DNA of 64,000 bases from a virus, in the IMG/VR virus record IMGVR_UViG_3300043395_003072, positions 94,463 to 158,462 of that record, one strand, 5' to 3'. Made by a program: the position numbers and the translations under genes. Positions 49,825-64,000 of the stretch are shown here, one piece after another. The notes under the pieces are model-generated. The model was not told where the DNA came from and ran no database searches. It saw only the letters and a program-made list of their open reading frames with translations. Each line of letters starts with the position of its first letter. Positions within the stretch are counted from its first letter, which is position 1.

Positions 49825-49924
49825 AAAATATTTGGGAGTAAGAGAGCGCGAGAAAGTATAAAAAATATTTGGGAAAAAGCTGTTACCTATGACGGCAATT
49901 AGAAAAATATAAAAAATATTTGGG
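49825..49924. repeat. Three direct repeats AAAATATTTGGG in the divergent intergenic junction
   Basis: Exact copies at 49825-49836, 49862-49873 and 49913-49924. Copies 2 and 3 extend upstream to AGAAA..TATAAAAAATATTTGGG. Confidence 0.75.
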
Positions 49925-50021
49925 GGTGTTATTTTTATAGTGGTTGGCACGATCCAAAAGATCCGTGCCCACCCGGGGGGAGTAAGCCCCTGGCCGCTGT
50001 GGCCTATAGCTTGAACACACC

Positions 50022-50387
50022 GTGGGTATGCCCCACAGAAAGTTCTGTGATCACATCATGATCAAGAACAAGCTCGAGAGTATTAACAACAATCCCTGGA
50101 ACTTCCGCAAGGTCTTCAAGATCGAGTGGTGTAACCGCAATGAGGGCGTCTCTGGTTGGGCTTCGGCCCCTGCCAACATCCCTGACTTCAACGGCAGCAC
50201 CGACGACCATGAGGACTTGGGTATCATCCTCGCCCTCCAGCGCCACTATGGCACTGCGCAGGTCGACGGGATGTATGTCTCGCCTATGACGGCCCGTTGG
50301 GCCGAGGCGTGCACGGTGGGTTTCGTGGTGGATGGGTGGCGCTACGGGCAGGCCTTCGGGCTCGCCTGGCGCGTCCGCGTCCGCTGA
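50022..50387 (+). CDS. Hypothetical protein (first plus-strand gene; start uncertain)
   Basis: GC3-rich codon bias like its neighbours; ends at the start of the repeated spacer. Confidence 0.6.
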   Translation: MGMPHRKFCDHIMIKNKLESINNNPWNFRKVFKIEWCNRNEGVSGWASAPANIPDFNGSTDDHEDLGIILALQRHYGTAQVDGMYVSPMTARWAEACTVGFVVDGWRYGQAFGLAWRVRVR

Positions 50388-50498
50388 GTCGCTGTTGTCT
50401 GATCTCTAGCCGCTTAGGCGGCTCAAAAATAAAGTCCTAGGGTCACCATACCTAGGCCGAAACGCCGTGAGGCGTCCGGGGAAAGCCCCGCTGATGAG
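50381..50498 (+). repeat. ~115-bp intergenic repeat, copy 1 (copy 2 at 51758-51872)
   Basis: Near-identical run CCGCTGAGTCG.TGTTGTCTG...CTAGCCGCTTAGGCGGCTCAAAAATAAAGTCCTAGG...GCTGATGAG. Confidence 0.9.
50434..50498 (+). ncRNA. Hammerhead ribozyme HH1 (type II-like permutation)
   Basis: Hairpin CCUAGG/CCUAGG, then CC-GAAA (50459), stem III CGCC-GUGA-GGCG, UC (predicted cut after 50476), stem I CGGGG-AAAG-CCCCG, CUGAUGA-G. Confidence 0.88.
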
Positions 50499-50620
50499 AA
50501 TTCACTTGTCAGAATGCCCTTTGCAACAGGACACACACGACCATCATAGCAGCTATCAAGCTGTGTCGTGCAGTGTATGAGACTGGGCTCACCTCCCTCC
50601 CGTGCAAAAAGGAGAATCCA

Positions 50621-50881
50621 ATGCACAATCAGTTTGATCCAGAGAATCGCCAGTGGTGCGGGGAGTGGCCCATCGTGGCCATCCCCGCACCTGAGCCTGA
50701 GCCCACCCCCGAGCCCACGCCTGACCCTGAGCCTGGTATGGTCACGCGTGTTGAGCGCGTGGCCCAGGAAGGGCTTTCTATTGGTGAGATGATTGCTGAG
50801 GGGGTCTCCCTATGGACGCTTGCGTCTTGGGGGATTGCCATCATTGCGAACCTCGCTCGAAAGTTCCGTAAGAAGAACTAA
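50621..50881 (+). CDS. Small protein with a Pro/Glu repeat and a C-terminal hydrophobic helix
   Basis: AAGGAG Shine-Dalgarno before ATG 50621. Contains PEPEPTPEPTPDPEP and ends LWTLASWGIAIIANLARKFRKKN. Confidence 0.65.
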   Translation: MHNQFDPENRQWCGEWPIVAIPAPEPEPTPEPTPDPEPGMVTRVERVAQEGLSIGEMIAEGVSLWTLASWGIAIIANLARKFRKKN

Positions 50882-50886
50882 GAGCA

Positions 50887-51006
50887 CCGCTGCCAGGTGT
50901 AACTCCTGGCGAAACGACTTCCTCTCGCTTCAAGTGAGAGGTTTGCTGTGAGGTGGAATCACAGCTGTAATAGTTGTCAGGGCTTAGCCCTCTGACGATC
51001 CAGCGG
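50887..51006 (+). ncRNA. Hammerhead ribozyme HH2 (variant with branched stem III and an outer closing stem)
   Basis: GCCAGG/CCUGGC hairpin, GAAA (50911), stem III CGACU/AGUUG enclosing two hairpins, GUC (cut after 50978), stem I AGGGC-UUA-GCCCU, CUGACGA. Flanks CCGCU/AGCGG pair. Confidence 0.75.
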
Positions 51007-51224
51007 GGTCCAATCAGCATTCTTTGCTCCAAATACCTGCGTTTGTTTGCTTTTCGTTAAAAGCAGGGATATGGGAGTCACACCCATTGCAAGTGGCCAC
51101 TCCTTTCTGAGTCGTAGTCCAGTCGCTACTTATGCGGCGGTACAGTTGATGCCTCAATCAACCCTGTTACTCTGAAATCAGGTTAAAATTCAGAATCTAC
51201 TAATACGCATAAAAGGAGTATCCT

Positions 51225-51764
51225 ATGCGTAATCTTGTGAAGATGATCCTCGTGAACAACCTCCTCGTCTCTGAGACCCAGGTCACCCAGGGGCTCTTCG
51301 AGGAGGTGATGGGGTGGAACCCCACTCGCAAGGTCAGCCGCTTCTCGCCCCCCACGCCTCACCGCTGTGTAAGGGACGTGTCGTGGTTTCAGTGCGTACG
51401 CTTCTGCAACAAGCTGAGCGACCTTGAGGGGTTGCAGCGAGCTTATTTGCTTGATGAGACTGCAGAGGTAGCCTTTACAATTGAGGGTGCCAATGGCTAC
51501 AGGTTGCCCACAGCAGCCGAGGCCAAGGTCTTCGCCAACAAACTCCTCGTAGCAGTTGCCAATAGGAACTCAGAGTTCCTTCTGGATGTGCATAATCACC
51601 GCCTCAATGACCTTGGCCTCAAGGGCGTGGGTAGTTCATGGGAGTGGACTATCCAAGATGCGGATAGAAAGTTAGATAAAATTGCCACCTGCGACTCTGA
51701 GGCCAGAGGGTGGTTTATGGGTGGTTCAGTGGCGGTGACCTTCCGGGTCGTCCGCTCCCGCTGA
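51225..51764 (+). CDS. FGE-sulfatase (formylglycine-generating enzyme-like, C-type lectin fold) domain protein
   Basis: Contains ETQVTQGLF..VMG.NP, VSWFQCVRFCNKLS..EGL, GYRLPTAAE, WEW and FRVVR; AAGGAG Shine-Dalgarno. Confidence 0.8.
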   Translation: MRNLVKMILVNNLLVSETQVTQGLFEEVMGWNPTRKVSRFSPPTPHRCVRDVSWFQCVRFCNKLSDLEGLQRAYLLDETAEVAFTIEGANGYRLPTAAEAKVFANKLLVAVANRNSEFLLDVHNHRLNDLGLKGVGSSWEWTIQDADRKLDKIATCDSEARGWFMGGSVAVTFRVVRSR

Positions 51765-51808
51765 GTCGTTGTTGTCTGGTCTAGCCGCTTAGGCGGCTCA
51801 AAAATAAA

Positions 51809-51872
51809 GTCCTAGGGTCACCATACCTAGGCCGAAACGCCGTGAGGCGTCCGGGGAAGCCCTGCTGATGAG
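51809..51872 (+). ncRNA. Hammerhead ribozyme HH3
   Basis: Same layout as HH1. GAAA at 51834, GUC cut after 51851, stem I CGGGG-AAG-CCCUG (G-U wobble), CUGAUGAG. Confidence 0.88.
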
Positions 51873-51945
51873 CACCCGCACATAAACGTTACAGGCTGCG
51901 TTTACTGTGAACCTTCCAAGCCTAAAGAGGAGGAGTTCCTCAAAA

Positions 51946-52626
51946 GTGAAAGGCTGCGACTTTACTGCAGCCGAGAAGTGTCCCGTGTTCGTGGGAGACA
52001 TCCACGCTCGTCCAGAGCTGTTGGAAGCCGTCCTCCGCGATTACGGGGATTTGAGGGTCATCCTGCTAGGTGATATCCTCGACGGCCCCGGTGGGGCTCG
52101 TGGCTCTGCTGAGCTTGTCAAGATGGCGCGTAAAAACGCCGTTGAGATGGTGCTCGGCAACCATGAGCTGTATCCGATCTTCGCCACAAGCCGGCAACAG
52201 CTGGCCCAGTGGTGGGGTGAGGATCCTCATGGGAAGACCGCCGAGAGGATCTGGCAGGAGTGGATGGCGATCCACTCTCTCCTTGATGATGAGGACATGG
52301 CATGGCTTCGGTCGTGCCCCCTCTATCTGAGAGGCGAGGGCTGGATTGCCGTTCACGCAAAGACCCTTCCCATCCTTCCTGCCCAGTACGTGACTGGTGC
52401 TCCGACCCAAGCTCAGATCGAGCTTGTGGATCACACGGAGAGCACCCCGTTCTGGGCTGAGGCGTACGATGGCCGTTTCGGCCATGCGTACTTTGGGCAT
52501 ACCCGCCTTTCCAAGGTGGGGCGCGCCCAGTGGCCTCATGCGACCCTGCTCGACTGGGACGCAAAGAAGGATGGTACCTGTGGGGTGTGTGTGCTCGGCG
52601 GCACACCCCACGCGCTTCTCGGCTAA
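51946..52626 (+). CDS. Calcineurin-like metallophosphoesterase (PPP / lambda-phosphatase / ApaH-like)
   Basis: Contains GDIH, GDILDG, GNHE, VHA and FGHT motifs. GTG start at 51946 follows AGGAGG. Confidence 0.85.
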   Translation: MKGCDFTAAEKCPVFVGDIHARPELLEAVLRDYGDLRVILLGDILDGPGGARGSAELVKMARKNAVEMVLGNHELYPIFATSRQQLAQWWGEDPHGKTAERIWQEWMAIHSLLDDEDMAWLRSCPLYLRGEGWIAVHAKTLPILPAQYVTGAPTQAQIELVDHTESTPFWAEAYDGRFGHAYFGHTRLSKVGRAQWPHATLLDWDAKKDGTCGVCVLGGTPHALLG

Positions 52627-52729
52627 CGCCGAGTTCCCGAACCCTTAAGCTTTTGGGTTAATAAAGCAACAGCCCGACCCCCTAGAGTGGTCACTTCCTG
52701 AGCATGAAGGAAAAAACTGCTCACCAAAC

Positions 52730-52812
52730 CCTAGGGTTCACCATACCTAGGTCGAAACCATGCTGGGGGGGTTACACCCCCAGGCATGGTCCGGGGAAGC
52801 CCCGCTGATGAG
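52730..52812 (+). ncRNA. Hammerhead ribozyme HH4
   Basis: CCUAGG hairpin, UC-GAAA (52754), long stem III CCAUGC-UGGGGG...CCCCCA-G-GCAUGG, GUC cut after 52791, stem I CGGGG-AAG-CCCCG, CUGAUGAG. Confidence 0.88.
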
Positions 52813-52860
52813 TCAAGCTCACAGATTAAAAAACAAACCGCGCACACAAGGAGAATTCCA

Positions 52861-53556
52861 ATGCGCAACCTCATCGTCACCGCCCTCGCGATCCGCGAGT
52901 TCACCCCCACCGCCCCCATTGCTTGCTCCCTCGCCCTCCCTGCCCACACCGATACCACCACCATCGTGGAGCCCCCTGCCCCCGACATGGCGCCCATCTC
53001 TACCCCGCCGCTCATCGACATCTCGATGGGCAACATCGTAGAGCAGATGCGGGCCTTTGACCCGCCGCTCTGGGTGCGTCCCGGGGTGGCGGGGTTTAGG
53101 GTGGTGTGGGGTGAGGTCACGCCCCCAGTCCCCCTCGAGGTGGAGGTCGGGGGTGTTGGGGGTTGCCTCCCTCACGTGGCGGGGGTGTGGGACGGGAAGC
53201 GGATCAGGGTAGCCACGTGGGGGAAGAAGGGGAACAAACAGTTCCACCGCGGCGGACTGGAGGGCACGATAGTGCATGAATTTGCCCACGTACTTCAATG
53301 GTATGGGGCCGGCAACAGCATCGGTGATTGGTACTATACCAACCACCACGATGAGCAATCCCACTTGTTCAAGAAGTGGGAAAGTGTCTTGTCCCCGTTC
53401 TACGCGGGGTCGCACGAGGCGGAAAGCACCGCCGAAGTGTTCAGGGTGTTAAAGGGGTACCGTTCCGATGAGGAGTGGGAGAACAACTCCCAACTCCTGA
53501 AGGAATGGGAAGGTTTCCTTAGGGGGAACGAAGTGTTCAAGCACTTCTTCCCCTAG
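52861..53556 (+). CDS. Putative zinc metallopeptidase
   Basis: TIVHEFAHVL (HExxH) with a downstream Y.....E.TAE; AAGGAG Shine-Dalgarno before ATG 52861. Confidence 0.65.
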   Translation: MRNLIVTALAIREFTPTAPIACSLALPAHTDTTTIVEPPAPDMAPISTPPLIDISMGNIVEQMRAFDPPLWVRPGVAGFRVVWGEVTPPVPLEVEVGGVGGCLPHVAGVWDGKRIRVATWGKKGNKQFHRGGLEGTIVHEFAHVLQWYGAGNSIGDWYYTNHHDEQSHLFKKWESVLSPFYAGSHEAESTAEVFRVLKGYRSDEEWENNSQLLKEWEGFLRGNEVFKHFFP

Positions 53557-53589
53557 TCTTCCGACCTGAAGAGGTCATTAAATATACTA

Positions 53590-53660
53590 GTCCTGGGGTC
53601 ACCATACCCAGGCCGAAACGCCTCCCTTTTGGGGGCGTCCCGGGAAGCCCGGCTGATGAG
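53590..53660 (+). ncRNA. Hammerhead ribozyme HH5
   Basis: Covarying hairpin CCUGGG/CCCAGG, CC-GAAA (53615), stem III CGCCUCC/GGGGGCG, GUC cut after 53639, covarying stem I CCGGG-AAG-CCCGG, CUGAUGAG. Confidence 0.9.
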
Positions 53661-53714
53661 AGTTGTAATTCAGCACTCCTTCAGATTCAACCCACCTGCA
53701 TACAGGAGAATCCT

Positions 53715-55007
53715 ATGCAGACTAAGTCCTCGGCGGCTACCACCGCCCGCCCTAACACCCCCACCCTCCGCGACGCGGAGCAGGCCGCGCTCGCCCGGTG
53801 GAGGGCGCTGCCCACCACCACCGCCACCACCCCCACCACCCCCACCCAGGCCGCCGCGCTGCCCCCCGCTGCGCCGTCCACGGAGACCACCATGACCATG
53901 GCACAGATCGTTGGTCGCATCACCCTCAAGGTGAGCGCCAAGGAGCGCCCCGCCCGCCTCGCCCCGCCCCAGCGTGCCACCCGCCGCACCCCCCTCACCC
54001 GCGCCGCCCTCGCCACCACTCTCCCCATGCTCGAGACGCGCTACGAGCGCGTTGCGGGCACCCTGCGCCTCAACGACAAAGGGGGTGTCGTTTCGCGCCA
54101 CCCCGCTCTCACCCCCTGGGTGACTTTCGACCCGCAGTCGCGGGATTACAGCATCGATCGCTACATCGACGGCCCCGGGCTCCTCGCCCTCAGCCGCAAG
54201 GTGGGCGCCAAGGTGGTGTTCGCCAACGCCACCTTTACCGCCCTCGCCGCCCTTACCCCTGAGCAGCGCGCCCTGCGCCGCGCCGCCCGCCGCGTCGCCC
54301 GCCGCACCGAGGCCGAGCGCCTCGACGCCGAGCGCACCGCCCACGCCCTCGCCGCCGCCCACGCCCGCGCCGCCGCCCTCGAGGAGGAGGCCCAGCGCCG
54401 CGCCGAGCGCGCCCTGGCCCGCAACACCCTCAAGGCGGAGCGCACCGCCCTCGCCCTCGACCTCGCCGGCGAGATGGGCGTGACCACCGCCGCCGCCCGC
54501 CGCGCCCTCCTCGACGCGGACTGGAGCATAGAGGACGCGCGCAACGCCCTTGAGCTCGCCGCCATGAAGGCCGAGGAGCGCAAGGAGCGCAAGGAGGAGC
54601 GCAAGGAGGCCGCCGACGCCCTCGCCGCGGCCCCCGCGAAGGTAAAGACCGCCCTGAAGGGCATCGCGAATCAGGCCCTCAAGGGCCGCATCGCCCTGGT
54701 CCTCGACAGCCTCAAGGGCCGCCTGCTCGGGGTGGCCCTCAAGGCAGCCCTCGCCGCCGCCGCCACCACCCCCGACGCCAACACCACCCTCACCACCGAC
54801 CGCCTCCAGTGCATCATCGCCAGCGCTGTCGACGAGGAGCGCATCCGCCGCGATCTCGCGGTGGAGCGCAAGCTCAAGATGAAGGCGGCCATCAAGGCGC
54901 GCAGCGAGGAGGTCACCAACCTCTTCGCCCGCGCCAAGGGGGGCGACAAGGGTGTGCCTCAGGCACTCACCCTCGCCATCACCCTCGCCCGCAAGGTGCG
55001 TGGCTAA
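53715..55007 (+). CDS. Ala/Arg-rich protein with a UBA/EF-Ts-N-like helical domain
   Basis: 430 aa with an AGGAG Shine-Dalgarno. EMGVTTAAARRALLDADWSIEDARNAL matches the UBA-like pattern. Codons are extremely C-ending. Confidence 0.6.
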   Translation: MQTKSSAATTARPNTPTLRDAEQAALARWRALPTTTATTPTTPTQAAALPPAAPSTETTMTMAQIVGRITLKVSAKERPARLAPPQRATRRTPLTRAALATTLPMLETRYERVAGTLRLNDKGGVVSRHPALTPWVTFDPQSRDYSIDRYIDGPGLLALSRKVGAKVVFANATFTALAALTPEQRALRRAARRVARRTEAERLDAERTAHALAAAHARAAALEEEAQRRAERALARNTLKAERTALALDLAGEMGVTTAAARRALLDADWSIEDARNALELAAMKAEERKERKEERKEAADALAAAPAKVKTALKGIANQALKGRIALVLDSLKGRLLGVALKAALAAAATTPDANTTLTTDRLQCIIASAVDEERIRRDLAVERKLKMKAAIKARSEEVTNLFARAKGGDKGVPQALTLAITLARKVRG

Positions 55008-55008
55008 G

Positions 55009-58000
55009 ATGTCTGCTGAGAACAACAGCAACATCACCGCCACCCCCGCCAACGAGCAGGAGAGCACGATGACCACCACCACCACCACCACTACCGCCGC
55101 CCCGGCCACTCCCGCCACCGAGCAGGAGCAGGTTGTGCACACGGACAACGTCACCCTCCCCAAGGCCACCCCGTGGGATGCTTCCTTCCTTGAGGCTATC
55201 AAGGACCGGGACTTCCCTGAGGCGTTTAAGACCTTGGTGCTGGCGCACTTCAAGGAGCGCCAGCTGCACCCCATGTTGTGCTGGGGCCACCATTCCACCA
55301 AGCAGCTTGAGGAGTTCATCTCCAACCAGTTGCCCTTGGACAGCGCCTTGCGCGCGTTCCAGCTGGACACCTGGGGCAGCCGCAGCTTCATTGGGCGGCA
55401 CTTTTCGCCGCTCTTCAAGGCTCGCTGGGAGTCCCTCAAGAAGAGCCAGGAGGAGGAGGAGATGGCTGAGATCGAGCGCCTCAACAAGCTGGAGGAGGTT
55501 AAGCAGGCCGAGCGTGACGCCGATAAGGCCCAGCGCAAGGCTGAGCGTGAGGCTCAGCGTGAGGCCGAGAAGGCTCAGCGCAAGGCTCAGCGTGAGGCTC
55601 AGCGTGAGGCCGAGAAGGCTCCCAAGAAGCCTTGGAGGAATGTGCCAAACCTCCACCTCGACCGCACCGAGCTGTCCACCTACACGGTGGAGCAGCTCAA
55701 GGCTCTGGCGGTCATCAACGCGACCGCCCTCCTTGTGCAGATCGACAGCACCCTCAGCCTCAAGCTTGTGCAGACTGAGGATGGCTTGGTCATGCCCGAG
55801 AGTCCTGCGAAGCCCACGCAGATCATGAAGGGCTTCGGGACCGCCAAGAAGGCGGACCTCATCAAGCTCCTCAACTGGATGGGCTCAGGCGACATGAGCA
55901 TGCGCCCGGCAGGAGCCACCAGTGACCTCGTCAAGGCGGTTGCCCAAAACTACCGCCCTGAGGAGGAGAAGCCGGAGGAGTCCCTCGCTGAGGTGATGGT
56001 GATCGGGAAGGCCGAGAGGCAGGAGAGCGCGAAGGCCAAGAGGCGTCGCCGCGAAAGCATTGTGCAGCTTGAGGAGGCCATCAAGGCTTTCCCCGCGCAG
56101 GCTGACGCCATCAAGCCCATCAAGGAGATGGTCTCGGCGGGCGGGGATACCCCGACCCACATTGACCTCGAGCAGGTTGACCGCGCCAGCAAGGCGTTGG
56201 AGGGTAACACCCTGGAGCAGGTCAGCTCTCAGGTGGGAGCCACCTACTGCCTGACGCTCCAGGTCTACCCGACCAACGAGCGCACCGCTCATGGCGATGG
56301 CAACCATGCCCAGGTCATGAAGGTGGCCTTGGTGCCCAGTGTCGCCTGGCGCCAAGGTGCCAGCTTCTTGGTCAACCAGTTTAACAACTGGATTGGCCTT
56401 GAGCAGAACCAGGACTTGGCGAAGAAGCTCAATGCCAAGCCGTTTAAGGTCGAGGTGGACGATTTCATTTTCGTCCAAAACAAGACCGACGAGAACGGCA
56501 ACGAGTCCGCCATCCCTGAGCTCAACAGGGTATTGACGAAGCTCGGGTATTTGGCGGTCACGCCGGGCTTCTGGCTCAAGAAGAACCACCCCTACTGCGC
56601 GTGGATCAAGAGCGTTTTCAAGACGAACTTGGTTGTGCGTGGGCGTGCCCGCAGCATCGCTACCACCCCGTATCAGGCTCAGCTGTCTTTCCAGCTTGAG
56701 CGTGATGCCGAGGGCAATGTCATTGGTGTGAGCAACACCCCGGTGTTCGTCGCCGACCTCACGAAGTACGGCCATGTGGGTCTTGATGGTAGCAATATCA
56801 TCAGCAAGAACCTCATGGGTACGGGGTGGACGCCGGGGGTTGTCGCGCAGATTCGCCTGCACACCAACCCCTACATCGCCCAGTCGTACGGCGTGCAGGG
56901 CAAGGGGCTGGCTCGCGCCCACAATGCCTGGGCGGTGCACACCCAGAGCGGGTGGGTCATTAAGACCGACTTCTATGCGAAGAAGTCGATCATTGACCAG
57001 GACGACAACCTCTCCCCCGCCGAGAAGGAGAGCGCCATCAAGGCGTTGAAGGCAGAGTACCTGCCCGCAATCATCCTTCACTATGACAACGTGAAGGGCG
57101 CGGGCTCGAAGGAGCTCGAGAAGGCGGTCAAGGGCAAGACCACCCTCTTGAACCTCAACCAGTGGGGCATGGAGGATGGTTATGAGTCTGCCCTCTTCGG
57201 TGGGGTGATCGCCGAGGATTACCGCGGTCAGAGCACCACGAGCTGGCAGAACGGCCAGCTCTACAGCCCCGAGGTGCTCGACGCCAACAAGGCCTACATC
57301 CACAAGCTCCTCGACACTGCCTTCAAGAAGCTGGCGGTTTCGGGAGAGAGTGCACTCTCCGATGTTGAGGGGTTTGATGTTGGCCTGCGGCAGCTTATCG
57401 CTGCCCAGCAGGCTAGCAACCACAAGTGGGTGACGTCGGTTGCTTTTGGTGCAAACCAGAAGTGGCCCACGTTCTACTGCGAGCAGATGGATATGCCCGC
57501 AGGCTTTGTGGTCGCAGGCTCCAAGATCGGTGGGAAGGCTGACAAGCTGGCAATCACTGGCCAGCCTCAGCTCTACCACCAGTGCTTGGTGGTCGCCAAC
57601 CGTCTCAGCTGGGACGATGTCAACGCCGTCATCGAGCACCTTGATGGCGAAAAGGTCACCCTCACTGAGCTCCAGGTTAAGTGGCTGGCAGCTTGGGGTA
57701 AGATGGGGGTGTCCGATGATGATATCCTCCATCGCCTTCGCTGGATGGCTGGTGGCTTCGTGCCCAATGGCACTGAGTCGCTGATCTGGGTCTCTACTGT
57801 AGACCAGAAAACCATGCAGCGAGATTCGGACGGTGACCGCCTCTTGGTGCTTTGGGATAAGGATATGATTAAGCTTGTTGAGGATCACAACAAGTCGATC
57901 GAGGCCCTCCTTAAGCCCCACCTGGAGGTGGACAGGAAGACCGCTCTGGATGGCGACCAGAAGTACAAGGACTTGGCCAATGGCGATTGGGGCAACCCAG

Positions 58001-61000
58001 ATATCGCTGAGGAGGCCAATGAGTACATCTGCGCGCCAAACGCAGGTCAGGGGCCCACGGGCGAGTTGGTTAACGCCAACAGCGCTGTGTTGAACCACTT
58101 TGTGTGGCAGCAGGTCAACGGCACCTGGCAGCCCGAGTCAGACAAGATGCACCACATCTTGAAGCTTTACGGTTTCATGTGCCTCTTGATCCAATGCTCC
58201 ATTGACCGCCAGAAAAAGGTCTGGGCGGTCCCGGCTCTGTGCCAGTGGCTGGCGCTGGACTTATATAGTGGAGAGATCACGTCCTACGAAACCCTTGCTC
58301 CTGGTGTGGAGAAGTACAGCTTCTTCATTCAGACTAAGAGCGGCGACAAGTCCATCCGCGAGATCCCTGTGCGTACCGGCTACGCCGATATGTTCAACAG
58401 GAGCATCATCAAGCCTTGGTTGGCAATGATGATCAACTTGGTGAATGCCAAGAGCACCTGTTTGAACGACACCACTGGGGCTTCTTTCCAGAAGGTGTTT
58501 AAGGATGTCGCTCAGGCGTTCTTGGACTCCTCGAACAACCCTGGCGGGTTTGACTGGGCGGCGATCGCTCAGGCAATCGGTGCGCAGGTCTCGGCCGAGG
58601 AGCTCAAGAGCAAGTGGGTTTTCCCCGACGAGCTCTACAGCTTTAAGGATCAGGCCTCGCTCTACGTGCCTGTTCCCAAGGCTGCCCCGGGGATCAAGTG
58701 GCTCACCACCAAGGCCACCGAGGTCTACTCGGGCTGGCGGAAGGAGAAGGGTATTTCCAACTACCCCTCCAGGCAGCTCTTCTTGAAGTTGAGCGGCCTG
58801 ACTGCCGACTGGATGGCAAAGCCCAATGCCCACTTTGGCGACGATTCCAGCGCGCTGGACTTCGTCAGGGAGTTCTCGAGCATGATGGCCCGTTCTGTCG
58901 CACAGAACCTGGCTAGCGTCGCCAACAGCGAGATCAAGCAGGGGCGCGGCGGCGACACCGCCCGAGAGGCGTTGAAGGAGATCCGTGCCGCGTTGACTGT
59001 CTTTGATGTGTACCACCCCGTCAGCAAGCTTATCAAGTATGCTGTGGGGAGGGACGCCAAGCCGGCCAACGTGAGCATGGCCTGTCTCGGTCTCATCCGT
59101 ATGTGGACCAAGTCTTGGTTGACCTCAGCGGCGACAAACTCCCTGATCGAGTACTTCTCTGTACTTAATCTTTACGGGCAGATCGACGCCAACTTCGACT
59201 GGTCTGTCCAGGAGGAGACTGAAGCGACTCGGTCCGTGAAGGAGGAGGTCACCCCCATTGAGGTCGCGAAGAACGTTCTTCGCAACTTGGAGGTGGTCTG
59301 CAACGAGGAGAATAAAACCCTCCTCATGCAGATGATCGATGACGTCAATAGCGACGTCAGCCTTGCCACCCTTGTGGAGAAGAACCGCCTTGCCGCTCAG
59401 CTTCACGAGTACAGCATCGCGGCTGAGCCCACTGGTGCCGAGCGCATCCTCACCGAGTGGTTGCCTGCGCTGGAGCTGGCCCAGGACAACATCGATATGG
59501 CCACAGAGAGGCGTGAGCTTTTCCTGGATGATAGCATATTCCAGGACTTCTGTGGTCTTGTCGGGGATCCCAGCATCGTCACCGAGAGGGCGTTCCTGGA
59601 TTTTGCCCAGAGGAAGATCCTTCCCGTGTTGAGCAGGAAGCTGCTCAGCCTGACGAAGAGCCAGGCCAACCTGGCGAACCAGGCTGACACCTGCATGCTC
59701 AACTGGTACCGCCTTGTGGCGAACCAGGCGGGGTGGGACGCCACGAAGCTTGTGAATAATCTCGCAGGCTTCACCAAGCTGTACCTGCCGCACATGCTCC
59801 CTCGCACCCGCGAGATTGTGGATCTCATGACCCCCTTTGTGCAGGCCTATCGCACGAAGGTGTGGATCCTTGACATGTACGGCAAGGTCGGGTCTCTTGG
59901 TACGAGCGATCCGCAGGTCCACAATCAGCGGATGGTGACCATGGTCGAGGAGGCGGTCTTCAACATGAAGCACGTCTTCGACCCCACCAGTGGCACTCTC
60001 CGCAAGGAGAAGACGATCAAGAGTCGTCCCGAGGTGGCAGTGAGCCCGGCGCTTCGTGCCAAGTTCACCTGGGAGCTCCTTTCTGAGGGGCTTAGCCATT
60101 ACGGTCTCCACACCACTCGGCGCCCGGCGTTCATCGATACCAAGGATGGTAAGAAGATGATCGTCACTCGCACCGACCGGTGGGTTTACATGGACTCCAA
60201 GATGCCCCGCAACTTGGACATCCTGAATAAGGCCTGCGAGCAGGGTCTGGTCATCGGCCACATCTTCAACCCTGACTGGTTGAAGGTGATGTTGGAGTCG
60301 GTCAAAAACCAGCTCAATGTCCCGGAGCTCTCGGCTGATGAGAAGGTGAACCTCGAGGCGAAGAAAGACGTGCTTGAGTACGCTCTCGCAGACGTGCTTA
60401 GCATGTACGTCATTGAGGACACCTCCCCTCGCACCCACGAGAGGCAGCTACTCGGCTCGCTGGCCTTCCCTGCCTGGTACGGTGGTCGGGATAAGTGCTT
60501 CCAGCACACCCCCTTTGACAGCTACCGCACCAGCGCTCACCGCTCGGTGTGGCGCTTCATCATGAGCGTCATGCCCTTGCAGGCTGAGTTTCAGGACAAG
60601 GCAGAGCTCTACGACCGCCTGACTGGCTGCCAGACGCTTAACGCGTCGAACAGACGTGGGTTTGCGGTCAGTGAGAACACTGACTGGGTGAACGCCCTCA
60701 GCACCAGCTCTTGGGGTACGAGCACGGCCAACTCGGGCTACTCCCGGGCTCCTCGGGACTTCAACACCACCCCCGGCGACATGTTCATCAATGGAACTTG
60801 GTCGAAGCCCAATCGCAGCCCTGCTGCGGAGAACCTCGGGATGCTCGACATCCAGGTCGGGAACATCTCGTTCCAGATGAGGACCGACGCTTACGTCTCT
60901 AATGCGGGCTGCACCTTCCAGGTCAGCTCTCGCTCCAGGGAAGATTCGGAGAACTGGGTCGAGAATGCCCCCTCCGGGTTTGGGGAGTCCAAGGGAATCC

Positions 61001-61368
61001 GCGAGATGACCATCATGGCGATGAGGTCGAATGTGGTGACTGGCCGCATCAACGGCCTTGAGGTGAGCAACATTGTTGCTCAGCGCATCGCGGAGCTCCG
61101 TTACCAGGACATCAAGGGCTGCGTGGTCTCCGAGGTGGACTTCGAGAAGTTCAAGACGGAGGCGATCATCGGCTGCTGGGGTGCCACAAACGCCCTCGAC
61201 AGCATCGTCGTCTCCAAGATGTCTGACGACAGCACCTGGGGTCGCTTCAGCGCTAAGACGAGCACGGCCTGGCGCGACTTTGCCAAGGGCAACAATAGGA
61301 GCTTCAAGATCCTGCCCCCGGTGAGCTCGCGCTTTTACCAGCTCCTCTTCGCCGCGAAGGGTAACTGA
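55009..61368 (+). CDS. Single-subunit two-barrel RNA polymerase (YonO / cellular RdRP-like)
   Basis: Ordered motifs DGSNIIS, QIR...KG, RDSDGDRLLVLWD (57823-57837), GELVN and SIDRQK mirror the cRdRP motifs DG.G.IS, FQIR..G.KG, DLDGD...V.WD, G.I.N and AVD.AK. Start is ATG 55009, or 55069 which has a Shine-Dalgarno. Confidence 0.8.
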   Translation: MSAENNSNITATPANEQESTMTTTTTTTTAAPATPATEQEQVVHTDNVTLPKATPWDASFLEAIKDRDFPEAFKTLVLAHFKERQLHPMLCWGHHSTKQLEEFISNQLPLDSALRAFQLDTWGSRSFIGRHFSPLFKARWESLKKSQEEEEMAEIERLNKLEEVKQAERDADKAQRKAEREAQREAEKAQRKAQREAQREAEKAPKKPWRNVPNLHLDRTELSTYTVEQLKALAVINATALLVQIDSTLSLKLVQTEDGLVMPESPAKPTQIMKGFGTAKKADLIKLLNWMGSGDMSMRPAGATSDLVKAVAQNYRPEEEKPEESLAEVMVIGKAERQESAKAKRRRRESIVQLEEAIKAFPAQADAIKPIKEMVSAGGDTPTHIDLEQVDRASKALEGNTLEQVSSQVGATYCLTLQVYPTNERTAHGDGNHAQVMKVALVPSVAWRQGASFLVNQFNNWIGLEQNQDLAKKLNAKPFKVEVDDFIFVQNKTDENGNESAIPELNRVLTKLGYLAVTPGFWLKKNHPYCAWIKSVFKTNLVVRGRARSIATTPYQAQLSFQLERDAEGNVIGVSNTPVFVADLTKYGHVGLDGSNIISKNLMGTGWTPGVVAQIRLHTNPYIAQSYGVQGKGLARAHNAWAVHTQSGWVIKTDFYAKKSIIDQDDNLSPAEKESAIKALKAEYLPAIILHYDNVKGAGSKELEKAVKGKTTLLNLNQWGMEDGYESALFGGVIAEDYRGQSTTSWQNGQLYSPEVLDANKAYIHKLLDTAFKKLAVSGESALSDVEGFDVGLRQLIAAQQASNHKWVTSVAFGANQKWPTFYCEQMDMPAGFVVAGSKIGGKADKLAITGQPQLYHQCLVVANRLSWDDVNAVIEHLDGEKVTLTELQVKWLAAWGKMGVSDDDILHRLRWMAGGFVPNGTESLIWVSTVDQKTMQRDSDGDRLLVLWDKDMIKLVEDHNKSIEALLKPHLEVDRKTALDGDQKYKDLANGDWGNPDIAEEANEYICAPNAGQGPTGELVNANSAVLNHFVWQQVNGTWQPESDKMHHILKLYGFMCLLIQCSIDRQKKVWAVPALCQWLALDLYSGEITSYETLAPGVEKYSFFIQTKSGDKSIREIPVRTGYADMFNRSIIKPWLAMMINLVNAKSTCLNDTTGASFQKVFKDVAQAFLDSSNNPGGFDWAAIAQAIGAQVSAEELKSKWVFPDELYSFKDQASLYVPVPKAAPGIKWLTTKATEVYSGWRKEKGISNYPSRQLFLKLSGLTADWMAKPNAHFGDDSSALDFVREFSSMMARSVAQNLASVANSEIKQGRGGDTAREALKEIRAALTVFDVYHPVSKLIKYAVGRDAKPANVSMACLGLIRMWTKSWLTSAATNSLIEYFSVLNLYGQIDANFDWSVQEETEATRSVKEEVTPIEVAKNVLRNLEVVCNEENKTLLMQMIDDVNSDVSLATLVEKNRLAAQLHEYSIAAEPTGAERILTEWLPALELAQDNIDMATERRELFLDDSIFQDFCGLVGDPSIVTERAFLDFAQRKILPVLSRKLLSLTKSQANLANQADTCMLNWYRLVANQAGWDATKLVNNLAGFTKLYLPHMLPRTREIVDLMTPFVQAYRTKVWILDMYGKVGSLGTSDPQVHNQRMVTMVEEAVFNMKHVFDPTSGTLRKEKTIKSRPEVAVSPALRAKFTWELLSEGLSHYGLHTTRRPAFIDTKDGKKMIVTRTDRWVYMDSKMPRNLDILNKACEQGLVIGHIFNPDWLKVMLESVKNQLNVPELSADEKVNLEAKKDVLEYALADVLSMYVIEDTSPRTHERQLLGSLAFPAWYGGRDKCFQHTPFDSYRTSAHRSVWRFIMSVMPLQAEFQDKAELYDRLTGCQTLNASNRRGFAVSENTDWVNALSTSSWGTSTANSGYSRAPRDFNTTPGDMFINGTWSKPNRSPAAENLGMLDIQVGNISFQMRTDAYVSNAGCTFQVSSRSREDSENWVENAPSGFGESKGIREMTIMAMRSNVVTGRINGLEVSNIVAQRIAELRYQDIKGCVVSEVDFEKFKTEAIIGCWGATNALDSIVVSKMSDDSTWGRFSAKTSTAWRDFAKGNNRSFKILPPVSSRFYQLLFAAKGN
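55525..55620 (+). repeat. In-frame 45-bp tandem duplication in the polymerase N-terminus
   Basis: Two near-identical units (55525-55569 and 55570-55614) encoding KAQRKA(E/Q)REAQREAE. Confidence 0.85.
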
Positions 61369-61370
61369 GC

Positions 61371-62150
61371 ATGGAGATCAAGAGCATGAACTCTGTCCTG
61401 GCCCTCCTCCCGGCCTCTGACCGGAAGAACTTCGTCGCGAAGCTGATGAAGCTTAGCGTCGATGCGACGGAGCTGTGCAACTTCCTCAACCTCTTTCCTG
61501 AGGATGAGCGCGTCGAGGCTCTGAGCAGCTTCCTTGACGGGCAGGTGGAGAAGCCCGCTTCGGCTGGCAACACCACCTACAACGGCACCGTTAACCGGTA
61601 CGAGATCTCTGGCGGTAGCAATAACCGTATCGAGATCTCGTACGCTGGTGGCGGGTATGCCCGGCAGAGCTCCTCCACCTCAACGCCCAAGCAGGCTGCT
61701 GACCGCAGCGCTTGGAACGTCAAGGGTGAGCTCGTCTACCTCAAGGATGAGTGGGTGAGCGTCATCAAGAGCCTCATCGGCGACGGGAAGGCTCTCAACC
61801 TCTCCGCCGTTGAGGGCCTGAAGTTCTTGGCCGCCCACAAGGGTGAGGTCTGGGGTTCGATCAACCCGAGCAACTTCATGTATGTGTCGCAGGCCGCTAC
61901 CAGCATTGATGGCTTGGTTTGCGTTCCTCACACGGATGTGAAGTACGCTTCCGGTCCCGCCTGCTTCCTCACCATGAAGGCGGAGCTCTATGATGCTGCC
62001 AAGGCTGCTGGCTTGATCGTGGGCGGGGACAGCGTTGCTTCTCCGGCTGCGCCGGCCCCCAGCGCTGCTGCTCCCGCAACCAAGCCCGCCTCCGATCCCG
62101 TAGCTTCGGTGCAGAACTCTCAGGACCTCAACCTCGGTACTGCCTGGTAG
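61371..62150 (+). CDS. Hypothetical protein coupled to the RNA polymerase gene
   Basis: 259 aa, starts 2 nt after the polymerase stop, has the same codon bias and an Ala/Pro-rich tail. Confidence 0.7.
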   Translation: MEIKSMNSVLALLPASDRKNFVAKLMKLSVDATELCNFLNLFPEDERVEALSSFLDGQVEKPASAGNTTYNGTVNRYEISGGSNNRIEISYAGGGYARQSSSTSTPKQAADRSAWNVKGELVYLKDEWVSVIKSLIGDGKALNLSAVEGLKFLAAHKGEVWGSINPSNFMYVSQAATSIDGLVCVPHTDVKYASGPACFLTMKAELYDAAKAAGLIVGGDSVASPAAPAPSAAAPATKPASDPVASVQNSQDLNLGTAW

Positions 62151-62156
62151 ATCTAA

Positions 62157-62268
62157 ACTGAGCTGACTCGGCACTCCTTTCGAGGGGTGCCGAAATGGCC
62201 TCAGCTTCGGCTGAGGCCATCGGGGACTAAGTCCCCCTGACGACCCGCTTGCGGGGAGTCAGCTCAGT
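62157..62268 (+). ncRNA. Hammerhead ribozyme HH6 (five-way junction variant)
   Basis: 13-bp outer stem ACUGAGCUGACUC/GAGUCAGCUCAGU; hairpin GGCACUCCU-UUCG-AGGGGUGCC; GAAA (62192); stem III UGGCCUCAGC-UUCG-GCUGAGGCCA; AUC cut after 62221; stem I GGGGAC-UAA-GUCCCC; CUGACGA; hairpin CCCG-CUUG-CGGG. Confidence 0.8.
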
Positions 62269-62525
62269 CTTCTTTTAACTTATGGCTTTTCTGATTCGAA
62301 GCACAAAATGCAGCATCGACACTCCGCCACCGCTCCGCGGTGAGAGTGTTGCTACGCAACACTCCGCCACAGCCTCCGGCCGTGGCGTGCGTAGCGCCAC
62401 GGGCGCTACGGCAGCTGTGCCACAGGCAACAGACATACATTGTATGTCGATGGCGTCGTTGATGACAGAACGGCGCCACTGCAAGGACTCTCCTTGTAGT
62501 GCCAAGTCTCTTGAAAGGAGCACCT

Positions 62526-62849
62526 ATGTCAAACTCAGCTAACACCCCCGCAACTGCCGAGGACCTCCTGAAGGCCAAGGTGCTCTCCGCCGCGGCGACG
62601 CTCACCCAGATGGGCGCCAAGGTGAACACTAGGATGGACGAGCGTGAGACCGCTAACGGCTTGACTCGGTACTTCCAGTTCGAGACTAGCCTCGCCTCAA
62701 TCGCCACCCTGGATGCGGCCCTCCTTGAGGGTTTGCTGGTCACCGTGACCGTAGCGGCCTACCAAGGCAGCTACACCGGCAAGGAGGCCCTTGAGAAGAC
62801 AGCGGCTACCTCCGCTGCAAACGCGTTTGCCAATTTTGGCAAGCGCTAA
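62526..62849 (+). CDS. Hypothetical protein
   Basis: AAAGGAG Shine-Dalgarno before ATG 62526; 107 aa with GC3-rich codons. Confidence 0.7.
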   Translation: MSNSANTPATAEDLLKAKVLSAAATLTQMGAKVNTRMDERETANGLTRYFQFETSLASIATLDAALLEGLLVTVTVAAYQGSYTGKEALEKTAATSAANAFANFGKR

Positions 62850-62857
62850 GAAGCGGC

Positions 62858-64000
62858 CGTCCCACCACCATGGGGACGTTAATTGTCATGGTTTTCTCGT
62901 TTTGTTTCCTTTTAAGGAGACGAGACGAGACGAGGAAAGCGTGCAATGCACACCTCGTAAAAAAAGTGGAATACCGTCGTGACGGAAGCCGTAAGGCTCG
63001 AGTCGCCTGTCGAGCTGTCTCCTGGGCAGCGAAACGGAAATGCCCACCAGTGGCAGGCCGAAGCGTGCTCCCGCTTCGGTCAATCTGGCCTCCTGCTCGC
63101 CGTGCAGGAGGGTCATCTGGCTAGACTATAGCCAGCATGATTAACCAAGGAGGCCCACCGAGTGGGACTTCGGCGAACCACTTAGTGGGCCTCGAAACCC
63201 TTTACCAGGAGGGGAGACTTCGGTCTGAATCCTGGTCCTCTGTAGCCGTGCAGGGGAGTCACTTCATCAGTGATCGAACGAGGGCCCACTTAAGTGGGAC
63301 TACGGCAACCACCTCGGTGGGCCCTCAGCTGTGCTGTCACACAGGATAAAAAACGGCAGGGTCCCCTCCAGGGGGACTTAAATAAAAACTGGCGGTGGTC
63401 TACCTGTATCGGTAGAGAAGCTGATTGCGCACCTAAGGGAACGAAAGGTGTGCGCCCAACAAGTGGGTACTCTCAACGCAAGTTGAGAGGGAACTGAATC
63501 AACGACTATACTAGTTATGTCGCTGATTGAAAGGATCGAGGGAGCTAAAGCTGTGCACAGCTATGCCCTGATGAACGAGGAGTAATTAACCTCAAGTAGT
63601 CGAAGTTGAGAGCCGCGCTGATGAGCGGCGAGACAACAGTCTGGAAAACTGTTGTCTTATACCCGTGGTTGATGGGCATCAAGTGGGGAGGATTTCTAAG
63701 TGCATGCTACTCCAAAGCATTGCTTAGTGAATATCTCCCTGCTGGAGGTGGGGTGTTTTGACACCTCACCTTTGGGCTCGCCAGTATCTAAACTGGCTGA
63801 GACTTGTGGCAGCGCGAACGCGAGCCCAAGCTAACCAAATCAACCTGGATGGAGACCTAAAAATCTCCTGTCGACGCCCTCATTGAGACGCCTCCACGTG
63901 GCGAGGGTGGAGCCCAGCGAAAGCTGCGGTACTAAGTCTCTGCATCGGGTGATCTTCGCAGAAGGTCATCTAGGTGCAACCGCGCAGGACGGATTTCCTG
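62858..64000 (+). ncRNA. Candidate large structured non-coding RNA (continues past the window end)
   Basis: About 1.15 kb with no ORF showing a Shine-Dalgarno site and the local codon bias. Nearly continuous hairpins, UNCG/GNRA loops and pseudoknots. Strand inferred from G-U pairs, tetraloops and context. Confidence 0.6.

What the first reader, a model, noticed from the sequence alone, without database searches (positions are those of the whole stretch)
62157..62268. Hammerhead core embedded in a five-way junction with no contiguous stem II
Seen: after CUGACGA comes a separate hairpin (CCCG-CUUG-CGGG) and then a perfect 13-bp outer stem. The C before GAAA closes its own 5' hairpin with a G. 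The 10.1-11.1 G-C pair therefore comes from a strand not linked to A9; two extra helices are inserted between A9 and G10.1. Two stems are capped by UUCG loops. Inference: a distinct hammerhead topology. The outer stem would also hold the two cleavage products together, favouring religation or tethering of adjacent mRNAs.
Basis: partly seen in the sequence, partly recalled or inferred. Interest (0 to 1): 0.8.

Follow-up and report, generated by a model that had tools for sequence, protein, structure and literature searches.

The report
Five-way hammerhead ribozyme in freshwater phage
A small self-cutting RNA (hammerhead ribozyme) in a freshwater phage has two extra helices inserted at a backbone link that is unbroken in the hammerheads described in the papers I could read; related phages keep this layout, so it is probably a working new variant that splits one long message in two.

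Summary
Observation confirmed. 62157-62268 folds as described (z -9) and holds all consensus hammerhead core bases in type II order, with a predicted cut after C62221. The base after A9 is C, so G10.1 must come from the 5' hairpin. A 4-bp hairpin and a 13-bp outer stem sit between A9 and G10.1 as a gapless four-helix junction.

An orthologue keeps all 37 shared pairs (5 double changes, none broken). Five more copies in four more distant phage contigs' lineages have the same gapless geometry with different sequences, and related four-way forms exist. Rfam misses this copy. A 2023 paper states that no known hammerhead has more than 1-2 nt inserted here.

The element is one of six hammerheads in a G+C-rich block encoding a QDE-1-like RNA polymerase. 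Most relatives have a terminator-like hairpin at this position, so it probably splits the message.

The tether/religation idea is weak: the long outer stem is specific to this copy. Its 3' arm can instead pair with the core CUGAC, as a downstream tract does in 18 of 20 family members. Cleavage is untested. The scan noted other core-insertion hammerheads on other DNA (not checked).

The parts
62157..62169 (+). Outer stem (P0), 5' arm; contains a CUGAC copy that mimics the catalytic core strand
   Evidence: covaries in relatives
62170..62191 (+). Stand-alone stem II hairpin; G62170 = G10.1, C62191 = C11.1
   Evidence: G-C closure on 11.1 in all five-way and four-way members
62192..62194 (+). Core G12 A13 A14
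   Evidence: sequence
62195..62220 (+). Stem III, 11 bp, starting with A15.1-U16.1, C(UUCG)G loop
   Evidence: 2 double changes, 1 single
62221..62221 (+). C17; predicted cut between 62221 and 62222 (AUC triplet; AUA in the orthologue)
   Evidence: hammerhead numbering
62222..62236 (+). Stem I hairpin, 6 bp, 3-nt loop; becomes the 5'-OH end of the 3' product
   Evidence: 2 double changes
62237..62243 (+). Core C3-A9 (CUGACGA)
62244..62255 (+). Inserted hairpin H4, 4 bp with G(CUUG)C loop; identical in the orthologue; a 10-12-nt hairpin in all five-way members
62256..62268 (+). Outer stem 3' arm; 62258-62262 (GUCAG) can alternatively pair with core CUGAC ('anti-core')
55009..61368 (+). 2119-aa ORF, QDE-1/RdRP-like single-chain RNA polymerase, upstream in the same operon
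   Evidence: DxDGD motif invariant; model pLDDT 55; top 12 Foldseek hits are QDE-1, best E 3.5e-5, TM about 0.2
61371..62150 (+). 259-aa ORF of unknown function; its stop lies 6 nt before the ribozyme
62321..62525 (+). Conserved multi-hairpin leader starting ACUCCGC, ahead of the 107-aa ORF 62526-62849; freed by the cut
50887..51006 (+). Sibling four-way form: 5-bp outer stem, G-C-closed 5' hairpin, 3-nt linker after A9 (no G), branched stem III; cut after 50978
50434..50498 (+). Sibling hammerhead, 1-bp stem II class (G after A9); cut after 50476
51809..51872 (+). Sibling hammerhead, 1-bp stem II class; cut after 51851
52728..52812 (+). Sibling hammerhead, 1-bp stem II class; cut after 52791
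53590..53660 (+). Sibling hammerhead, 1-bp stem II class; cut after 53639

Best explanation
This is an active, type II-ordered hammerhead ribozyme whose helix II is a separate upstream hairpin. SHOWN (sequence and comparison): complete core; G10.1-C11.1 closes the 5' hairpin; hairpin H4 and the outer stem are inserted between A9 and G10.1 with no unpaired bases; the layout is conserved with compensatory changes. INFERRED: the A9.G12 pair, H4, the outer stem and stem II form a four-helix junction in which stem II stacks on the core as usual and H4 stacks on the outer stem. Stems II, III and I fold as local hairpins in transcription order, the outer stem clamps the core, and the RNA cuts after C62221. 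This separates the polymerase plus 259-aa message (3' end: two hairpins and a cyclic phosphate) from the downstream leader and 107-aa gene (5'-OH hairpin end), doing the job that a terminator-like hairpin appears to do at this site in relatives. After the cut, core CUGAC can take over the 3' arm of the outer stem. That would help release the 5' product, make religation unlikely and give the new 5' end two adjacent helices.
For: Fold and shuffles. Orthologue L120/L130: 37 of 37 pairs kept, 5 changed on both sides, 2 on one side; slid controls pair 40-48% with 0 double changes; core unchanged; C17 changes only to the allowed A. Same gapless five-way geometry with different stem sequences in L125, L126, L134, L139 and L138. 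Four-way forms with no G after A9 and no H4 (window 50887, L134:7717, L139:2030, weaker L120:1753) leave the 5' hairpin as the only candidate helix II. A natural 1-nt insertion at exactly A9/G10.1 is tolerated in the CChMVd (+) hammerhead (PMC1636495). Clustered hammerheads between phage genes cleave in vitro and in vivo (PMC3088659). A hairpin plus U-tract sits at the orthologous position in L122/L131/L132, L123, L125, L126, L133, L143, L144 and L145, against a hammerhead in the window, L120 and L138. The 3' product pairs CUGA downstream with probability above 0.5 in 18 of 20 members (mean 0.85 against 0.45 in shuffles).
Against: No cleavage data. Only one independent orthologue has this exact sequence type (16 of 500 shuffles reach the score, the ceiling for two sequences). 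In the five distant five-way members the base after A9 is G, so a one-step branch migration gives a conventional 1-2-bp stem II; they support the junction but not the broken A9-G10.1 link. Secondary-structure energies, which omit tertiary contacts, favour core-sequestered folds in most members, including the orthologue (core-compatible probability 0.01 there, 0.50 here). No loop I pseudoknot or UNmYN loop is present to supply the usual tertiary contact. No promoter was identified (at chance level). Family members were picked by my own core descriptor, so core conservation across them is circular.
Confidence: 0.62

Rival explanations
1. Active hammerhead, but H4 (directly after A9) stacks on the A9.G12 pair as the functional helix II and the 5' hairpin swings out. 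The effective break is then between 11.1 and G12.
For: H4 is identical in the orthologue while the 5' hairpin varies. In distant members H4 starts with a G-C pair that could serve as 10.1-11.1.
Against: Here H4 starts with C-G, the inverse of the conserved pair. Four-way members have no H4 at all. The 5' hairpin closes G-C on the base before GAAA in every five-way and four-way member.
Confidence: 0.1
2. A regulated or partly silent ribozyme: the anti-core pairing is an OFF state of the precursor. Only a fraction of transcripts is cut, set by folding kinetics, pausing or a trans factor, which tunes read-through from the polymerase operon.
For: Anti-core pairing is conserved. The OFF fold is the predicted MFE for the orthologue and most siblings. 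During elongation of this copy CUGAC is transiently paired when about 25 nt from C3 have emerged, then freed by the full outer stem.
Against: In this copy the full 13-bp outer stem restores an open core (unpaired probability 0.95). No ligand or regulator is evident. The same pairing is equally explained as a post-cleavage cap.
Confidence: 0.13
3. One reading: the outer stem keeps both products together so that they religate or stay tethered as adjacent mRNAs.
For: 13-bp perfect stem; predicted net binding of the products -11.2 kcal/mol in this copy.
Against: Only -2.3 kcal/mol in the orthologue; outer stems of 5-10 bp, or none, in other members. The 3' arm has an intramolecular competitor. Religation would only rebuild the precursor. 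Perreault et al. looked for spliced or circular products of clustered phage hammerheads and found none.
Confidence: 0.08
4. A catalytically dead or non-catalytic structured spacer, derived from a hammerhead and kept as an end-stabilising or terminator-like element.
For: No Rfam hammerhead hit. The block-C rule is broken. A U-rich tract follows the outer stem in this copy.
Against: All core bases are intact. The cleavage-site base changes only within the allowed set, all stems covary, and the U-tract is absent in the orthologue.
Confidence: 0.07

Closest known systems
Type II hammerhead ribozymes of phages and prophages (Rfam RF02276; Perreault et al. 2011, PMC3088659)
   Same: Same core consensus, same 5'-3' order (GAAA, cut site, CUGANGA), stems I and III closed by loops, clustered between phage genes, proposed to split polycistronic messages.
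   Different: Stem II is not formed by the strand after A9; two helices are inserted there. There is no loop I pseudoknot with the tail. RF02276 gives three siblings 18-26 bits (cut-off 37) and no hit to this copy.
CChMVd (+) hammerhead with an extra A between A9 and G10.1 (De la Pena and Flores 2001, as cited in PMC1636495)
   Same: Insertion at the same backbone link, and still active.
   Different: One nucleotide there. Here a 12-nt hairpin, a helix and both RNA ends are inserted, so A9 and G10.1 end up on different cleavage products.
Non-circularly permuted hammerheads, types SGC and CSG (Eckert et al. 2023, PMC10085705)
   Same: Conserved core with rearranged connectivity; missed by standard descriptors.
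   Different: Those reorder three intact blocks and create pseudoknots. This keeps the type II block order (GSC) and has no pseudoknot, but interrupts 'block C', which that paper assumes cannot be interrupted.
Pseudoknot (PK) hammerhead, Rfam RF03152 RAGATH-1, crystal structure in PMC11300833
   Same: Helix II is replaced by a differently connected helix while the mechanism stays hammerhead-like.
   Different: There the strand between CUGANGA and GAAA pairs with a hairpin loop. Here there is no pseudoknot, and no RF03152 hit at E up to 10.
Natural hairpin ribozyme four-way junction (works-like analogy; PMC3672286 abstract, and own knowledge)
   Same: A four-helix junction beside the active site that may act as a folding scaffold.
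   Different: Different catalytic class; the scaffold role here is inferred only.

Membership tests
Hammerhead ribozyme (class) | Core consensus C3 U4 G5 A6 N7 G8 A9, G12 A13 A14 A15.1, U16.1 H17 | tested here: met
   consensus as listed in PMC3088659 methods
Hammerhead ribozyme (class) | Paired 1.1-2.1 and A15.1-U16.1 next to the core; stems I and III | tested here: met
   6-bp and 11-bp stems with covariation
Hammerhead ribozyme (class) | A 10.1-11.1 pair (usually G-C) adjacent to G12 | tested here: met
   G62170-C62191, supplied by the 5' hairpin
Hammerhead ribozyme (class) | Site-specific self-cleavage after H17 giving 2',3'-cyclic phosphate and 5'-OH | not testable with these tools
Type II hammerhead (RF02276) | Order GAAA, cut site, CUGANGA; stems I and III looped, ends at stem II | tested here: met
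Type II hammerhead (RF02276) | Three-way junction; strand after A9 directly forms stem II (block C intact, at most 1-2 nt inserted) | tested here: not met
   0 conventional pairs; 12-nt hairpin plus outer stem inserted; rule quoted
Type II hammerhead (RF02276) | Pseudoknot of 4 or more bp between loop I and the tail (majority feature) | tested here: not met
   loop I is 3 nt and differs in the orthologue
Type II hammerhead (RF02276) | Covariance-model score at or above 37 bits | tested here: not met
   no hit for this copy at E up to 10
Non-circular permutations (SGC, CSG, GCS) | Block order other than CGS, GSC, SCG, with two pseudoknots | tested here: not met
   order is G-S-C, nested helices only
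PK hammerhead (RF03152) | Helix II replaced by a loop pseudoknot; model hit | tested here: not met

The most novel reading that the evidence does not exclude
The A9-G10.1 link is a fourth natural break point of the hammerhead. In these phages the ribozyme is built from two halves (stem II hairpin, GAAA and stem III on one product; stem I and CUGANGA on the other) that share no core-adjacent base pair. An outer stem that mimics the core toggles it by strand displacement. Halves from different spacers could then dock on each other, letting the six-ribozyme block switch, shuffle or circularise single-gene RNAs next to a QDE-1-like polymerase.
Probability: 0.1. Interest if true: 0.85.

Novelty: new variant of a known kind. 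Interest (0 to 1): 0.6.

Why it matters
Hammerhead descriptors and the published permutation scheme assume that CUGANGA runs straight into stem II. A natural, covarying family that inserts whole helices there would be invisible to Rfam and to those searches, so the natural hammerhead count may be too low. It would also show that the A9-G10.1 backbone link is dispensable. The family shows apparent intermediates (1-bp stem II, branch-migrating junction, no G after A9), which suggest a route for topology change. It offers a new insertion site for aptamers. The swap between ribozyme and terminator-like hairpin at one orthologous site, and the conserved anti-core pairing, give a direct test of the open question of what phage hammerheads do.

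Tried and rejected
Rfam at gathering and E-value thresholds: no hammerhead hit for this copy. BLAST against deposited phages: nothing. Loose core patterns in IMG/VR: chance matches only; L137 lacks a stem III and was set aside. The exact core-plus-H4 pattern in GTDB genomes gave 27 matches, none with a hammerhead around it. Protein searches in viral and genome collections found no relatives. Promoter and terminator consensus scans were at chance level. Pfam, PHROGs and PDB sequence searches did not name the flanking ORFs. Coding explanation: no ORF of 40 aa or more spans the element. Rolling-circle RNA replicon: no minus-strand cores, and the block lies in a tailed dsDNA phage contig (terminase, major head and tail sheath hits). 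A search for a circularly permuted form gave mostly ordinary or chance hits and one unresolved group. Weinberg et al. 2015 could not be read, and subscription papers are not searched, so novelty is bounded by the held library. The maximum-likelihood tree did not finish; a FastTree tree was used instead, with no clade test.

Full report
OBSERVATION. The element is present as described. The + strand 62157-62268 folds into five helices around one junction, as both MFE and centroid (-78.1 kcal/mol; z -9.0). In hammerhead numbering it runs: outer stem 5' arm 62157-62169; a 9-bp hairpin 62170-62191 closed by G-C; G12 A13 A14; stem III (11 bp) from A15.1 to U16.1; C17 at 62221; stem I (6 bp); C3-A9 at 62237-62243; a 4-bp hairpin H4; and the outer stem 3' arm. 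The base after A9 is C and the base before GAAA is C, so a conventional stem II has no pair. It lies 6 nt after a stop codon and no ORF spans it. Rfam finds nothing. RF02276 gives sub-threshold hits only to three sibling ribozymes, and RF03152 gives none.

CONTEXT. The window is the end of a 158-kb virus contig with terminase, major head and tail sheath genes. Near-identical DNA occurs in freshwater metagenomes. From about 49,900 to the end, G+C rises from about 0.35 to about 0.6. This block holds six hammerhead cores, all on the coding strand and all between genes. The rest of the genome and 1000 shuffles hold none (the one at 50887 was a lead from note e1-5633076 that I then verified). The block's 2119-aa ORF has an invariant DxDGD motif, and its low-confidence model matches QDE-1 and other two-barrel RNA polymerases. 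Relatives of this gene often lie on contigs of about 14.4 kb, which would fit a long terminal repeat of early genes. That is an inference, not tested.

HOMOLOGUES. The closest relative (L120 = L130; polymerase about 60% identical) has the element at the same place. [quoted passage not shown] Slid controls pair only 40-48%. The core and H4 are unchanged, C17 becomes A, and the outer stem is 8 bp. With two sequences this is the strongest pattern obtainable but still thin.

More distant phages carry the same gapless geometry at other spacers, with different stem sequences. L125, L126, L134, L139 and L138:1719 have outer stems of 7-10 bp and a 10-11-nt hairpin after A9. Tail shuffles reproduce this in 0-15 of 5000 trials. 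L123 has one junction mismatch. In these members the base after A9 is G, so a one-step branch migration gives a conventional 1-2-bp stem II capped by a four-way junction; they prove the junction, not the broken link.

The broken link is forced by the finding, by its orthologue and by four-way forms. These have a 5-bp outer stem, a 3-nt linker starting with U and no H4 (window 50887; L134:7717; L139:2030; weaker L120:1753). A third class (four window copies, two in L120, three in L138) keeps G after A9, with a 5' hairpin stacked beyond a 1-2-bp stem II. The three classes read as a series, though their order in time was not tested.

HOW IT MOST LIKELY WORKS. Shown: core, stems and conserved geometry. 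Inferred: the sheared A9.G12 pair, H4, the outer stem and stem II meet without unpaired bases. By the usual behaviour of four-helix junctions (own knowledge), stem II can stack on the core as in any hammerhead while H4 stacks on the outer stem. The A9/G10.1 link already tolerates one extra base in the CChMVd (+) ribozyme (PMC1636495). The three catalytic helices are local hairpins that form in transcription order, and the outer stem then clamps the core. The cut after C62221 separates the polymerase operon from a conserved multi-hairpin leader starting at 62321 and a 107-aa gene. At this same position L122/L131/L132, L123, L125, L126, L133, L143, L144 and L145 have a hairpin followed by a U-tract, L121 has an A+U-rich version and the L134/L140 group has neither. 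The window, L120 and L138 have a hammerhead. On a FastTree tree of the polymerase the ribozyme-bearing phages fall in two branches with different architectures (no clade test). This supports a message-separating role, as proposed for clustered prophage hammerheads (PMC3088659).

The 5' arm of the outer stem contains CUGAC, a copy of the core strand, so the 3' arm can pair with either. In the 3' product, core CUGA pairs with a downstream tract with probability above 0.5 in 18 of 20 family members, including those with no outer stem (mean 0.85 against 0.45 in shuffled tails; 14 of 20 individually at or below 0.05; members are related, so this is not a p-value). This helix sits directly against stem I. 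It could cap the new 5'-OH end and block religation (my preferred reading), or act as an OFF state of the precursor. Energies without tertiary contacts favour core-sequestered folds in most members; this copy is the exception. The tether idea holds only for this copy: net product binding is -11.2 kcal/mol here and -2.3 in the orthologue.

COMPARISON. It works like a type II hammerhead. It meets the class core features that can be tested by sequence, but it fails three RF02276 features: three-way junction with an intact block C, loop I pseudoknot and model score. I therefore do not file it as an RF02276 member. Eckert et al. [quoted passage not shown] This element keeps the type II order but breaks that block. 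It is not a PK hammerhead. Eight literature searches of the held library found no description of this architecture. Subscription papers and Weinberg 2015 were not readable. This scan has noted other hammerheads with helices inserted in or near the core on other DNA (e1-5336321, e1-818069, e1-5321206, e1-5344182). One of them, with three hairpins in place of stem II, could be a circular permutation of the same junction. I could not check it, and these notes are leads, not support.

VERDICT. A real, selected structure and a new variant of a known kind. About 0.85 that it self-cleaves at C62221; 0.62 for the full best explanation. Interest 0.6: surprising to a ribozyme specialist and cheap to test, but within a well-known class, untested at the bench, and with the strictly broken link resting on a few independent lineages.

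Noticed in passing
window 50434-53660: Four sibling hammerheads with a 1-bp stem II and a 5' hairpin with a conserved 9-10-nt loop. The pair at 11.2 covaries (G-C or A-U) across a bulged pyrimidine; the same class occurs in L120 and L138.
   Followed up: partly
window 62321-62525: Conserved multi-hairpin leader starting ACUCCGC in every relative examined. ACUCC repeats, some in loops, resemble an anti-Shine-Dalgarno sequence. No Rfam match.
   Followed up: partly
window 55009-61368: Single-chain RNA polymerase of the QDE-1/RdRP-like fold; about 35 relatives at 50% clustering; no Pfam hit.
   Followed up: partly
window 49900-64000 and G000:C1:1-4500: G+C-rich block of about 14 kb in an A+T-rich genome. 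Relatives often assemble as 14.3-14.8-kb contigs, suggesting a long terminal repeat of early genes.
   Followed up: partly
window 62850-64000: More than 1.1 kb without a clear gene and densely structured; only the first 130 nt match L120 by BLAST. A GUGCG at about 63450 recalls a group II intron 5' end but Rfam gives no such hit.
   Followed up: no
L123:11577, L125:10883, L134:20411: Loop I is a GAAA tetraloop and stem II has an asymmetric internal loop after tandem C-G pairs, resembling a GNRA receptor (from memory); a candidate tertiary contact.
   Followed up: no
L176, L184, L187, L188 (IMG/VR): Conserved hammerhead-like core with a GUC..GAC hairpin after A9 followed by a G-C-closed hairpin before GAAA. 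Stems I and III are weak or unclear; possibly another permutation of the same insertion.
   Followed up: partly
window 62219-62221: The AUC triplet is described as essentially absent from natural hammerheads in PMC1636495 (2006); the orthologue has AUA.
   Followed up: no
window 50405-50483 and 51780-51858: 79-nt identical repeat (hairpin, A-rich linker and ribozyme 5' half) behind unrelated genes.
   Followed up: no
L121, L122, L131-L133, L143-L145: Relatives with the same polymerase block in which my descriptor found no hammerhead, so the ribozymes are not essential to the block (some contigs are partial).
   Followed up: partly
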